A stretch of 18,860 bases of DNA from a virus (Duplodnaviria; Heunggongvirae; Uroviricota; Caudoviricetes), in the IMG/VR virus record IMGVR_UViG_2526164632_000035; one strand, 5' to 3'. Made by a program: the position numbers and the translations under genes. Positions within the stretch are counted from its first letter, which is position 1; each line of letters begins with the position of its first letter. Below, piece by piece: positions 1,158 through 4,382 of this stretch. A model generated the notes under the pieces. That model had not been told where the DNA came from. It worked only from the letters and a program-made list of their open reading frames with translations, and made no database searches.

Positions 1158-1233
1158 TTACTTCATCCCGCCAATATTTTCCCACGTCCCGTCAGCACGC
1201 AGGATTTGCAGCGGTCTTACCACACACTGTATC
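1158..1233 (-). pseudogene. 3' remnant (about 24 codons plus stop) of an unidentified minus-strand gene, cut at its 5' side by the IS66 left end
   Basis: The minus-strand frame is open from the IS junction at 1233 to TAA at 1158..1160 (…IQCVVRPLQILRADGTWENIGGMK*), followed directly by the terminator hairpin. GC-richer than the adjacent nleB region. No homology recognised. Confidence 0.3.
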
Positions 1234-1258
1234 GTAAGCGCATCATTTAAACCGTCTT
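1234..1258 (+). repeat. IS66-family left terminal inverted repeat
   Basis: gtaagcgcatcatttaaaccgtctt; pairs with the reverse complement of 3913..3937. Confidence 0.7.
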
Positions 1259-1318
1259 TCGCCTCCCTTTCCTGTTTCCGATACTAATGTCCATTTTCGC
1301 AGTAAAAGGACATTTAAG

Positions 1319-1969
1319 ATGAATGCACGAAAAGCGGTACTGGCAGATAATCCAGAATTGATCCTGCGTGTGCTACAGCTGAGATTTGACGAGTCACTGT
1401 CGTACCCGCGCATTTCTGCGCAGACTGGTGTCAGCAAAACCGCCATTTTTTCTCTGGTGAGGCGATTTCACCAGGTATTCACTGACTGGCCTCTTTCCGG
1501 TGAATATTCCTGCGGGCAACTGGCCCGGGCTCTTTTCCCGGGGCGATACCCTTCAGCCCCGACCGTGACTCAGCCTGTGAAAGCAGAGAAACCCCGCCGG
1601 AACCGATTTTCACCGGAGTTTAAATGGAGACTGGTTCAGCAAACTCTTTTACCCGGTGCCTGTGTCGCACAAATAGCTCGAGAGAATGGAATTAACGATA
1701 ACCTGCTCTTTAACTGGCGGCATCTCTGGCGTAACGGTGGCCTGCAACCGCCCGGCGAACATGAAACATCGCTACTTCCCGTGACGTTAACTCCGGAGCC
1801 GGATAATAAAATCCCGGCACCAGTGCAGATACCTGAACAGATAAATACACTGCCAGACAGTCTGTGCTGCGAGCTGGTTCTGCCGGCCGGAACTCTCAGG
1901 CTGAAAGGTGAACTGACACCGGCGTTATTACAGACACTTATCCGCGAAATGAAAGGGAGCAGCCACTGA
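1319..1969 (+). CDS. tnpA: IS66-family accessory protein (ORF1, helix-turn-helix-like)
   Basis: 216-codon ORF, first gene of the IS66 three-gene module. AAGGA ribosome-binding site about 10 nt upstream. Its stop overlaps the tnpB start (tgATGa at 1967..1971). Confidence 0.75.
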   Translation: MNARKAVLADNPELILRVLQLRFDESLSYPRISAQTGVSKTAIFSLVRRFHQVFTDWPLSGEYSCGQLARALFPGRYPSAPTVTQPVKAEKPRRNRFSPEFKWRLVQQTLLPGACVAQIARENGINDNLLFNWRHLWRNGGLQPPGEHETSLLPVTLTPEPDNKIPAPVQIPEQINTLPDSLCCELVLPAGTLRLKGELTPALLQTLIREMKGSSH

Positions 1970-2316
1970 TGATATCTCTCCCTGCCGGTTCGCGTATCTG
2001 GCTGGTTGCCGGTATCACCGATATGCGAAATGGCTTTAACGGCCTGGCCTCAAAAGTTCAGAACGTCCTGAAGGATGACCCGTTCTCCGGGCATCTGTTC
2101 ATCTTCCGCGGACGCCGGGGTGACCAGATAAAAGTGCTGTGGGCTGACAGTGACGGACTGTGCCTCTTCACCAAACGCCTGGAGCGGGGCCGCTTCGTCT
2201 GGCCGGTCACCCGCGATGGAAAGGTTCACCTTACTCCGGCTCAGTTGTCCATGCTTCTCGAAGGCATCGACTGGAAGCACCCGAAACGAACGGAACGCGC
2301 TGGCATCCGCATATAA
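1969..2316 (+). CDS. tnpB: IS66-family Orf2 protein (IS66 TnpB, unrelated to IS200/IS605 TnpB)
   Basis: 115-aa ORF MISLPAGSRIWLVAGITDMRNGFNGLA…, the characteristic small second ORF of IS66 elements, translationally coupled to tnpA. Confidence 0.85.
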   Translation: MISLPAGSRIWLVAGITDMRNGFNGLASKVQNVLKDDPFSGHLFIFRGRRGDQIKVLWADSDGLCLFTKRLERGRFVWPVTRDGKVHLTPAQLSMLLEGIDWKHPKRTERAGIRI

Positions 2317-2335
2317 CCCGTTGTAAAGTGAGGAT

Positions 2336-3907
2336 ATGGACACCTCACTTGCTCATGAGAATGCCCGCCTGCGGGCACTGTTGCAGACGCAACAGGACAC
2401 CATCCGCCAGATGGCGAAATACAACCGCCTGCTCTCACAGCGGGTGGCGGCTTATGCTTCCGAAATCAACCGGCTGAAGGCGCTGGTTGCGAAACTGCAG
2501 CGCATGCAGTTCGGTAAAAGCTCAGAAAAACTTCGCGCTAAAACCGAACGGCAGATACAGGAAGCACAGGAGCGAATCAGCGCACTTCAGGAAGAAATGG
2601 CGGAAACGCTGGGTGAGCAATATGACCCGGTACTGCCATCCGCCCTGCGCCAGTCTTCAGCCCGTAAACCGTTACCGGCCTCACTTCCCCGTGAAACCCG
2701 GGTCATCCGGCCGGAAGAGGAATGCTGCCCGGCCTGTGGTGGTGACCTCAGTCCTCTGGGGTGTGATGTGTCAGAGCAACTGGAGCTTATCAGCAGCGCC
2801 TTTAAGGTTATCGAAACACAACGTCCGAAACTGGCCTGTTGTCGGTGCGACCATATCGTGCAGGCAACAGTACCTTCAAAACCCATTGCACGCAGTTATG
2901 CCGGAGCGGGGCTTCTGGCCCATGTTGTTACCGGGAAATATGCAGACCATCTGCCGTTATACCGCCAGTCAGAAATATACCGTCGCCAGGGCGTGGAGCT
3001 GAGCCGCGCCACGCTGGGGCGCTGGACAGGTGCCGTTGCTGAACTGCTGGAGCCGCTGTATGACGTCCTGCGCCAGTATGTGCTGATGCCCGGTAAAGTC
3101 CATGCTGATGATATCCCCGTCCCGGTCCAGGAGCCGGGCAGCGGTAAAACCCGGACCGCCCGGCTGTGGGTCTACGTCCGTGATGACCGTAACGCCGGTT
3201 CGGAAATGCCCCCGGCGGTCTGGTTCGCGTACTCACCGGACCGGAAAGGTATCCATCCACAAAATCATCTGGCCGGTTACAGCGGTGTGCTTCAGGCCGA
3301 TGCTTACGGTGGTTACCGGGTGTTATACGAATCCGGCAGAATAACGGAAGCCGCGTGTATGGCTCATGCCCGGAGAAAAATCCACGATGTGCATGCAAGA
3401 GTGCCCACCGACATCACCACGGAAGCCCTGCAGCGTATCGGTGAACTGTATGCCATAGAGGCAGAAGTCCGGGGATGTTCAGCAGAACAGCGTCTGGCGG
3501 CAAGAAAAGCCAGAGCTGCGCCACTGATGCAGTCACTGTATGACTGGATACAGACTCAGATGAAAACACTGTCGCGTCACTCGGATACGGCAAAAGCGTT
3601 CGCATACCTGCTGAAACAGTGGGATGGCCTGAACGTGTACTGCAGTAATGGCTGGGTGGAAATCGACAACAACATCGCAGAGAACGCCTTACGGGGAGTG
3701 GCCGTAGGCCGGAAAAACTGGCTGTTCGCGGGTTCCGACAGCGGTGGCGAACATGCGGCGGTGTTGTACTCGCTGATCGGCACATGCCGTCTGAACAATG
3801 TGGAACCAGAAAAATGGCTGCGTTACGTCATTGAGCATATCCAGGATTGGCCGGCAAACCGGGTACGCGATCTGTTGCCCTGGAAAGTTGATCTGACCTC
3901 TCAGTAA
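2336..3907 (+). CDS. tnpC: IS66-family transposase
   Basis: 523-aa ORF with an N-terminal leucine-zipper-like region, Cys-rich block (CPACGG…CCRCD) and a C-terminal catalytic region typical of IS66 transposases. Ends 30 bp before the right IS end. Confidence 0.9.
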
Positions 3908-3912
3908 ATATC

Positions 3913-3937
3913 AATACGGTTCTGGCGAGCCGCTTAC
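3913..3937 (-). repeat. IS66-family right terminal inverted repeat
   Basis: Reverse complement gtaagcggctcgccagaaccgtatt; shares GTAAGCG and the AACCGT block with the left repeat. Confidence 0.7.
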
Positions 3938-4382
3938 GAATCATGCTGGCCCCCAGTGAAAACAGCATCGTGGTGGCAGAAAAACCACCGGCACTCAGGG
4001 CTGTACCCCATAACGCCATCGAGCCTCCGGCCGTGAAGAAAGAGCCCACGATGGCTGCCGCCCCCAGCACAATCTGCAGTCCACCCTTTCCGGCCCCGGC
4101 CAGTCGCGGCACAATGTGGATGACCGTTCCCTCACCCAGCTGTTCGTGAAGACGGGCGTACACCGCCTCCGGTGCCGTGTCCTCACCGCGAATACGTATC
4201 TGGTACCAGCCTTCGTTCATCTGACGGCGGAATCCCGGCATCTGCATCGACAGGGCACGGATGGCTTCCGCTGCCGTGTTCACATACAGGCTGAGGCGGC
4301 GGCCAAATCGTTGTAAATCCCCGTGAAGGCAGATACGTGCCAGTGGCGGTGACGCCAGGCTGAATGCGTTCGTCGTTGCCAT
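3938..4382 (-). pseudogene. I: Lambda gpI-like tail assembly protein, truncated after codon 147 by the IS66 insertion (track ORF 3828..4382 reads on into IS sequence)
   Basis: N-terminal 147 aa (MATTNAFSLASPPLARICLHGDLQRFGRR… HIVPRLAGAGKGGLQIVLGAAAIVGSFFTAG…LFSLGASM) match lambda gpI as recalled. The codon after M147 lies across the IS boundary at 3937/3938, so the C-terminal 37 aa are IS-encoded. Confidence 0.8.

What the first reader, a model, noticed from the sequence alone, without database searches (positions are those of the whole stretch)
1158..4382. IS66-family element replaces the tail-tip and tail-fibre region, joining a truncated gene I to the effector cargo
Gene I is cut after codon 147 exactly at the right IS end (3937/3938). 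On the left side the IS abuts the last 24 codons of an unidentified minus-strand gene plus its terminator. There is no 8-bp target-site duplication (actgtatc vs gaatcatg), and J, lom and tail-fibre homologues that follow I in lambda are absent. This argues for an IS-mediated adjacent deletion or recombination between two IS copies, not a simple insertion. The prophage would be unable to make an adsorption-competent tail, yet the IS itself looks intact.
Basis: partly seen in the sequence, partly recalled or inferred. Interest (0 to 1): 0.6.

Follow-up and report, generated by a model that had tools for sequence, protein, structure and literature searches.

The report
IS679-anchored deletion of prophage tail genes
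A complete copy of the known insertion sequence IS679 sits where a lambda-like prophage of a pathogenic E. coli has lost its tail-tip and tail-fibre genes, which is an ordinary example of a prophage decaying through insertion-sequence activity.

Summary
Window 1234-3937 is a complete 2704-bp IS679 (IS66 family), identical to plasmid copies. Its flanks differ (ACTGTATC | GAATCATG), so there is no target-site duplication. On the left lie the last 24 codons of a small tail-fibre gene. On the right lies a lambda I homologue cut after its codon 148 (lambda codon 147). J, lom, tail-fibre and sodC homologues are absent from the window.

Two closed genomes of relatives show the history. FDAARGOS_1059 has the same IS at the same tail-fibre site with a perfect 8-bp duplication, and the whole stf-lom-J-sodC-I interval is present. 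O111:H2 strain 12A has the same left junction, but its IS right end is joined 354 bp short of the window's breakpoint. So the IS first inserted normally. DNA next to its right end was lost later: about 6.8 kb of phage DNA.

The sequence cannot tell whether this happened by recombination with a second, same-orientation IS679 copy or by one-ended transposition. I slightly favour recombination. One caveat is that the window comes from a draft contig that spans a roughly 10-copy repeat.

The event is routine prophage decay and of low interest.

The parts
1..981 (-). nleB2 effector pseudogene (premature stop at codon 53, window 823-825). It is the 'effector cargo' that now lies about 250 bp from the IS.
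   Evidence: Pfam SseK_NleB on both ORF pieces. The translation shows the internal stop. PGAP marks it 'internal stop' in both relatives.
1114..1143 (-). Hairpin plus U-run downstream of the tail-fibre gene stop; a likely intrinsic terminator.
   Evidence: RNA fold gives -21.3 kcal/mol, z = -4.0, and 0 of 200 shuffles fold as well. The simple consensus scan did not flag it.
1158..1233 (-). Remnant of the small tail-fibre C-terminal-domain gene: last 24 codons (IQCVVRPLQILRADGTWENIGGMK) plus the stop. This is the original IS679 target site; ACTGTATC is at 1226-1233.
   Evidence: The 89-aa gene was reconstructed from FDAARGOS_1059 after removing the IS and one TSD copy. PGAP annotation.
1234..3937 (+). 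Complete IS679 (IS66 family), 2704 bp.
   Evidence: 100% identical to plasmid copies. PGAP names it 'IS66-like element IS679 family transposase'. The ends were defined from many independent copies.
1234..1258 (+). Left terminal inverted repeat (GTAAGCGCATCATTTAAACCGTCTT).
   Evidence: Inverted-repeat pair I2.
1319..1969 (+). tnpA (216 aa, HTH_Tnp_1).
1969..2316 (+). tnpB (115 aa, IS66 Orf2-like).
2336..3907 (+). tnpC DDE transposase (523 aa; LZ, zf-IS66, DDE_Tnp_IS66 and IS66_C domains).
3913..3937 (+). Right terminal inverted repeat (...CGCTTAC). The deletion begins at the next base.
3938..4382 (-). Truncated lambda-I-type tail assembly gene: codons 1-148 plus 1 nt. The ORF reads on into the IS to a stop at 3828, adding 36 foreign residues.
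   Evidence: Pfam Lambda_tail_I. 59% identity to lambda I residues 1-147. The full-length 226-aa version in strain 12A aligns end to end with lambda I.
4280..5023 (-). Intact K homologue (JAB + NlpC/P60). It marks the start of the retained tail and head gene block (L, M, H, T, G, V, U, Z, FII, FI, E, D, C, B, W, A).

Best explanation
There were two steps.

Step 1 (shown). IS679 transposed normally into the small tail-fibre C-terminal gene of a lambda-like, effector-carrying prophage and made the 8-bp duplication ACTGTATC. That state survives in E. coli FDAARGOS_1059.

Step 2 (structure shown, mechanism inferred). In the window's lineage, everything between the IS right end and codon 148/149 of gene I was lost while the IS stayed whole. 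The lost genes are I codons 149-226, sodC, J, lom, the large tail-fibre gene and the first 65 codons of the small one. This is about 6.8 kb of phage DNA, or about 9.3 kb counted on the FDAARGOS_1059 arrangement, which also holds an ISEc22.

The route I think most likely is as follows. A second IS679 copy landed in gene I at GAATCATG in the same orientation. Homologous recombination between the two 2.7-kb direct repeats then excised the interval. This left one IS with the left flank of the first copy and the right flank of the second. The starting point may have been the full FDAARGOS-like state, or a 12A-like state in which only 354 bp remained to be lost.

Consequence: the prophage has no J and only a truncated I, so it cannot build a tail tip on its own. 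It is fixed next to its (partly decayed) effector genes.

My confidence in the general class, a secondary deletion anchored on the IS right end, is about 0.85. My confidence that it went by recombination between two copies is 0.45, which is the figure given for this explanation.
For: - The left junction is the same in three strains. The TSD ACTGTATC is intact only in FDAARGOS_1059, where stf, lom, J, sodC and I follow the IS.
- In strain 12A and in the window the IS right end is kept to the last base but is joined to GCACATCC and GAATCATG respectively, 354 bp apart.
- IS679 is very active in this lineage. There are 11 matches to its specific 5' region in the 12A chromosome and 9 in the FDAARGOS_1059 chromosome plus 1 on its plasmid, against a median of 1 in E. 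coli genomes that have any.
- FDAARGOS_1059 has a further IS679 inside gene I, only 214 bp from the window's breakpoint (TSD CGATAACC). New copies therefore do land there.
- The window's IS carries T at 3479, the allele of the plasmid copies. The IS at this site in 12A and in FDAARGOS_1059 carries A. This fits a right-hand part that came from a different copy.
- Site 6407 groups the window with 12A, and the outgroup has the FDAARGOS allele. On that tree the T allele would need recombination with another copy.
- Recombination between two direct IS66 copies, leaving one copy with unlike flanks, is an experimentally documented deletion route (PMC6778807).
Against: - No genome with IS679 inserted at GAATCATG or at GCACATCC with a TSD was found among 5,426 complete E. 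coli genomes.
- No I 3' fragment protein starting at M147 was found in the protein collection.
- Two different endpoints on the same IS end need four events (two insertions and two recombinations) under this model. One-ended deletion needs only two.
- The supporting SNP evidence is one site each way. The 3479 allele could be ancestral, or could be a consensus of collapsed repeat copies in a draft assembly.
- The strain tree is unresolved because the head region is mosaic.
Confidence: 0.45

Rival explanations
1. Transposase-made adjacent deletion. The resident IS679 used its right end in an intramolecular (one-ended or replicative) transposition into a nearby target in the same DNA molecule. 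This removed the DNA between the IS end and the target. No second copy was ever involved.
For: - The IS end is kept to the last base and the TSD is lost. The left flank is the original insertion site.
- Two closely related strains have different endpoints anchored on the same IS end, the classic pattern of nested or independent adjacent deletions. This needs the fewest events.
- No second-copy intermediates were seen.
- The IS66-family transposition pathway is poorly characterised, so this route is not excluded (PMC12898284).
Against: - I found no report of IS66-family adjacent deletions in the held literature.
- The only documented IS66 deletion route is recombination between two copies.
- Under the tree suggested by site 6407, an extra conversion or back-mutation is needed to explain the plasmid-type T at 3479.
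Confidence: 0.35
2. Assembly collapse. In the real genome there are two IS679 copies, one in the tail-fibre gene and one in gene I. The draft assembler joined the outer flanks through one collapsed copy, so the DNA between them still exists on another contig.
For: - The window is the last 18,860 bp of the draft contig AIHC01000061.1 of GCA_000250255.2.
- IS679 is present in about 10 copies in the closed relatives.
- The window has four single-base indels against both relatives, three of them in homopolymer runs. This suggests an error-prone draft.
- The independent Illumina contig confirms only the right junction, not its linkage to the left one.
Against: - A closed relative (12A) truly has one IS679 with unlike flanks at this locus, so such a structure is real in the lineage.
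- Assemblers normally break contigs at unresolved repeats instead of bridging them.
- No I 3' fragment beginning at the breakpoint was found.
Confidence: 0.1
3. Inversion. Recombination between this IS679 and an inverted copy elsewhere flipped the interval, so that the I 3' end, J, lom and stf lie next to another IS679 copy in the same genome.
For: - FDAARGOS_1059 does carry a second, inverted IS679 in gene I.
- The rest of the window's genome could not be read.
Against: - An inversion between inverted copies would leave gene I next to the IS left end. In the window it abuts the right end.
- In 12A the junction of the IS right end with the tail-fibre gene, which an inversion would preserve somewhere, is absent from the whole genome.
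- The breakpoint in I (GAATCATG) differs from the site of the inverted copy (CGATAACC).
Confidence: 0.03

Closest known systems
IS679 (IS66 family), first described on the EPEC plasmid pB171 (Han et al. 2001, J Bacteriol 183:4296; cited from memory and from the reference lists; the paper itself was not readable here).
   Same: - Three ORFs, tnpA, tnpB and tnpC, with the IS66 domains.
- GTAAGCG termini and a length of 2704 bp.
- 8-bp TSD where the insertion is undisturbed.
- 100% nucleotide identity to plasmid-borne copies annotated as IS679.
   Different: This copy has lost its TSD, because the DNA next to its right end was deleted.
Deletion of 270 kb of pAt15955 in Agrobacterium by recombination between two direct IS66 copies (PMC6778807).
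   Same: One IS66-family copy remains at the deletion site, with flanking 8-mers that come from two different insertions.
   Different: In that case both parental copies were observed and shown to be required. Here the second copy is only inferred.
Defective lambdoid prophages of pathogenic E. coli, for example Sp1-Sp18 of O157 Sakai (PMC2669165).
   Same: These are lambda-like prophages that carry type III effectors downstream of the tail-fibre genes. They are riddled with IS insertions, deletions and frameshifts.
   Different: The IS family differs: IS679 here, against mostly IS629 in O157. The host is an O111:H2-type EPEC lineage.
Phage lambda tail-tip module K-I-J-lom-stf-tfa (NC_001416).
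   Same: Gene order, the 103-bp K/I overlap, and 65% identity between the intact relative's I protein and lambda I.
   Different: The relatives carry a sodC gene in antisense orientation between I and J. The window lacks everything after I codon 148.

Membership tests
IS66 family / IS679 | Three consecutive ORFs, tnpA (HTH), tnpB (IS66 Orf2-like) and tnpC (DDE transposase with leucine zipper and zinc finger). | tested here: met
   Pfam hits: HTH_Tnp_1 7.5e-17; TnpB_IS66 2.8e-40; DDE_Tnp_IS66 1.2e-103, plus LZ, zf-IS66 and IS66_C.
IS66 family / IS679 | Imperfect terminal inverted repeats that begin 5'-GTAAGCG. | tested here: met
   The arms at 1234-1258 and 3913-3937 match at about 17 of 25 positions. 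The termini are GTAAGCG and CGCTTAC.
IS66 family / IS679 | 8-bp target-site duplication. | tested here: not met
   The flanks are ACTGTATC and GAATCATG. The very same insertion in FDAARGOS_1059 has ACTGTATC on both sides. The feature was therefore lost secondarily, which does not argue against membership.
IS66 family / IS679 | Near-identity to the named reference element (the ISfinder naming rule). | tested here: inconclusive
   The element is 100% identical to four plasmid copies, and the copies are annotated 'IS679 family' by PGAP. The ISfinder reference sequence itself was not available for comparison.
Lambda gene I (tail assembly protein, Pfam Lambda_tail_I) | Sequence homology to lambda I, and a position overlapping the 3' end of K. 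| tested here: met
   Pfam E = 5.2e-16. BLASTP against lambda I gives 3e-57 over residues 1-148. The 103-bp K/I overlap is as in lambda.
Lambda gene I (tail assembly protein, Pfam Lambda_tail_I) | Full-length protein (about 223-226 aa). | tested here: not met
   Homology stops at residue 148 and 36 IS-encoded residues follow. The 12A orthologue is 226 aa.
IS-anchored secondary deletion (by either mechanism) | The IS is complete to its last base, the TSD is lost, one flank is the ancestral insertion site, and the missing DNA begins exactly at the IS end. | tested here: met
   Three-way comparison of the window, 12A and FDAARGOS_1059.
Transposase-mediated adjacent deletion specifically | The deletion arises without a second IS copy and independently of RecA. 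| not testable with these tools
   The sequence outcome is identical to that of recombination between two direct copies. No intermediates were found, but that absence is weak evidence.

The most novel reading that the evidence does not exclude
IS679 itself made the deletions by one-ended intramolecular transposition from its right end. The O111:H2 lineage would then preserve a natural series: the intact insertion in FDAARGOS_1059, the endpoint in 12A, and the endpoint in the window 354 bp further on. That series would be the first sequence-level evidence about the still uncharacterised transposition pathway of the IS66 family. In addition, the roughly 355 bp around the 3' end of gene I may be a preferred IS66-family target, since four independent IS ends from four strains fall there.
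Probability: 0.35. Interest if true: 0.3.

Novelty: already known. Interest (0 to 1): 0.15.

Why it matters
The finding explains why this effector-carrying prophage cannot make its own tail tip and is effectively locked in the chromosome, unless other prophages supply the missing parts. It adds one more documented case of insertion sequences eroding prophages in pathogenic E. coli. Its only wider value is as a small natural data set (three states of one IS679 insertion) that could help in designing a test of how IS66-family elements move.

Tried and rejected
- **Exact look-up of the 184-aa I-IS fusion ORF.** It is not on record. The 151-aa version from the internal ATG is on record.
- **The original IS679 paper.** It could not be read, either by DOI or by PMC id. 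IS679 properties were instead checked empirically on database copies.
- **Literature search for IS66-family adjacent deletions.** Nothing relevant was found. A search on the IS66 mechanism gave only a study of β-clamp binding and IS orientation.
- **Ordering the three strains by SNPs.** This failed. One site (6407) groups the window with 12A, and one IS site (3479) groups 12A with FDAARGOS_1059. The head and terminase region of the window is a mosaic of patches.
- **Derivation of the 12A junction from an ISCro1-type insertion.** Strain Z1323HEC0010 has an ISCro1 between sodC and I. I rejected this origin because the sites are 43 bp apart and the IS in 12A is IS679 to its end.
- **Derivation of the window from the inverted IS679 in gene I of FDAARGOS_1059.** Rejected: the orientation and the site are both wrong.
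- **Deletion running leftwards from an original insertion in I.** Rejected, because the left junction is the one that carries the preserved TSD in FDAARGOS_1059.
- **Illegitimate recombination that ends at the IS by chance.** Rejected, because two strains both break at exactly the last IS base.
- **Protein search for an I 3' fragment beginning at the breakpoint.** There was no 100% match of the expected 80-aa length.
- **The simple terminator scan.** It missed the hairpin at 1114-1143. Folding supports the hairpin.
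Full report
**What is in the sequence**

Window 1234-3937 is a complete insertion sequence of 2704 bp.
- It has the termini 5'-GTAAGCG...CGCTTAC-3' and imperfect terminal inverted repeats of about 25 bp.
- It has three intact ORFs: tnpA (1319-1969), tnpB (1969-2316) and tnpC (2336-3907). They carry the HTH_Tnp_1, TnpB_IS66 and DDE_Tnp_IS66 domains, plus the zinc-finger, leucine-zipper and C-terminal domains.
- It is 100% identical to several plasmid copies. PGAP annotates matching copies as 'IS66-like element IS679 family'.
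- Independent copies in the databases all include positions 1234 and 3937, and several stop exactly there. This fixes the ends.
- The 8-mers outside the ends are ACTGTATC (1226-1233) and GAATCATG (3938-3945), so there is no target-site duplication. This is meaningful: all six other IS66-family insertions I inspected in related loci have perfect 8-bp duplications. They are two IS679, one ISEc22 and three ISCro1.

**The flanks**

*Right flank.* On the minus strand to the right lies a homologue of lambda gene I.
- It starts at 4382 and overlaps the K homologue (4280-5023) by 103 bp, exactly as I overlaps K in lambda.
- It aligns with lambda I at 59% identity up to its residue 148, which is lambda residue 147. 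It then continues for 36 residues encoded by the IS end. The intact orthologue in a relative is 226 aa and aligns with lambda I from end to end.

*Left flank.* Positions 1158-1233 (minus strand) encode the last 24 codons and the stop of an 89-aa gene that PGAP calls 'phage tail fiber C-terminal domain-containing protein'.
- A strong hairpin and a U-run follow it (-21.3 kcal/mol, z = -4.0).
- Further left lies nleB2, with a premature stop.

*What is missing.* tblastn with J, Lom, Stf, Tfa and SodC proteins from lambda and from a related prophage finds nothing in the window. The retained tail and head genes, from K through the terminase, follow in lambda order.

**Relatives show the history**

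| Genome | Left junction | What follows the IS right end |
|---|---|---|
| E. coli FDAARGOS_1059 (closed) | same | ACTGTATC again, then the rest of the small tail-fibre gene, the large tail-fibre gene, lom, J (split by ISEc22, TSD GAGCCAGA), an antisense sodC, and gene I. Gene I is hit near its 3' end by a second, inverted IS679 with TSD CGATAACC. |
| E. coli O111:H2 strain 12A (closed) | same | GCACATCC, 72 bp beyond sodC's stop. Gene I is intact. |
| Window | same | GAATCATG in gene I, 354 bp beyond the 12A endpoint. |

So the IS first inserted normally into the tail-fibre gene. In two lineage members, DNA starting at its right end was lost later.

Compared with FDAARGOS_1059, the window lacks about 9.3 kb. 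That is about 6.8 kb of phage DNA once ISEc22 is discounted. The related, undeleted prophage of strain Z1323HEC0010 gives the same estimate.

Neither deletion junction occurs as a single piece in any other of the 5,426 complete E. coli genomes. The intact junction occurs only in FDAARGOS_1059. In particular it is absent from 12A, so in 12A the change is a true deletion and not an inversion.

**Source and reliability**

- The window is the terminal 18,860 bp of the draft contig AIHC01000061.1 of assembly GCA_000250255.2.
- The junction between the IS right end and gene I is reproduced at 100% identity in an independent short-read contig, NMLS01000127.1 of GCA_002467565.1. That contig stops 127 bp into the IS.
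- Both junctions are therefore real. Their linkage through a single IS copy, however, rests on a draft assembly across a repeat that has 9-11 chromosomal copies in the closed relatives.
- The window also has four single-base indels against both relatives, three of them in homopolymer runs. This suggests sequencing errors.
- I give assembly collapse about 10%.

**Mechanism**

The structure is a complete IS with its TSD lost, its original flank on one side, and the missing DNA starting at the last IS base. It can be produced in two ways. One is homologous recombination between this copy and a second, same-orientation copy that had inserted at the far endpoint. The other is one-ended intramolecular transposition, giving an 'adjacent deletion'.

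For recombination:
- IS679 is highly active in this lineage.
- New copies demonstrably land in gene I.
- Recombination is the only documented deletion route for an IS66-family element (PMC6778807).
- The window's IS carries the plasmid-type T at 3479, whereas the IS at this site in 12A and FDAARGOS_1059 carries A. Site 6407 groups the window with 12A. Together these would imply that the right part of the window's IS came from another copy.

For adjacent deletion:
- Two different endpoints anchored on one IS end need only two events instead of four.
- No second-copy intermediate was found.
- The IS66-family pathway is poorly characterised (PMC12898284).

The SNP evidence is thin, the strain tree is unresolved, and the head region is mosaic. 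I put recombination at 0.45, adjacent deletion at 0.35, assembly collapse at 0.10 and inversion at 0.03, with the remainder unassigned.

**Comparison with what is known, and verdict**

The element is IS679, a known member of the IS66 family. Lambdoid prophages of pathogenic E. coli are well known to be riddled with IS insertions, deletions and frameshifts (PMC2669165).

The corrections are these:
- The left gene is the tail-fibre gene's own 3' end.
- sodC was lost as well.
- The neighbouring nleB2 is a pseudogene.
- The prophage may carry further defects.

This is routine prophage decay, of low interest and already known in kind. Its one modestly interesting aspect is that the three states could serve as natural material for testing how IS66-family elements generate deletions.

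Noticed in passing
window 1-981 (-), stop at 823-825: nleB2 carries a premature stop at codon 53 (...PNPE*YKKDE...). The two closed relatives share it. Beyond the window, those relatives also have a truncated nleC and a frameshifted nleH, and only nleF looks intact. The 'effector cargo' is therefore itself decaying.
   Followed up: partly
window 12857, 13408, 14813-14814, 16086: There are four single-base indels against both closed relatives, three of them in T or A homopolymer runs. They split the major capsid (E), the protease/scaffold (C) and the portal (B) ORFs. The one at 13408 lies between the ribosome-binding site and the start of D. The split portal product is on record only from the window's own draft assembly. 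These may be sequencing errors or real extra decay.
   Followed up: partly
L001 (strain 12A) 15938-16299, equivalent to the region just right of window 3937: Four independent IS66-family ends from four strains fall within about 355 bp around the 3' end of gene I and the sodC-I spacer. They are the 12A junction (GCACATCC), an ISCro1 in Z1323HEC0010 (TSD GAATAATT, 43 bp away), the inverted IS679 in FDAARGOS_1059 (TSD CGATAACC) and the window junction (GAATCATG). Another ISCro1 sits in K in strain WP7-S17-ESBL-04. This may be a hot spot, or it may just reflect tolerated insertions.
   Followed up: partly
window 3479 (IS679 position 2246): This is the single difference inside the IS. The window has T, as do the plasmid copies, including the plasmid of FDAARGOS_1059. 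The chromosomal copies at this locus in 12A and FDAARGOS_1059, and the second copy in gene I, have A.
   Followed up: yes
window 13591-14462, 16454-17042, 17102-18860: There are dense patches of SNPs against 12A and FDAARGOS_1059, which are nearly identical to each other. In some patches the window matches the prophage of Z1323HEC0010, and in others it matches none of the three. This indicates mosaic recombination among lambdoid prophages, or a chimeric consensus in the draft assembly.
   Followed up: partly
L002 24283-24810 and L003 5851-6378: The related undeleted prophages carry a Cu/Zn superoxide dismutase gene (sodC) in antisense orientation between tail genes I and J. This is a moron at an unusual position, and it was lost together with J in the window.
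   Followed up: no
12A and FDAARGOS_1059 chromosomes: IS679 has expanded in this lineage to 9-11 chromosomal matches per genome. The median is 1 in E. coli genomes that have any, and the maximum seen is 14.
   Followed up: partly
window 1049-1156 (-): PGAP annotates a short N-terminally truncated 'hypothetical protein' remnant in the relatives between the tail-fibre gene stop and nleB2. Its identity was not examined.
   Followed up: no
window 18860: The window's right end coincides with the end of the source contig, inside the terminase region. This is probably a repeat-induced contig break between similar prophages.
   Followed up: partly
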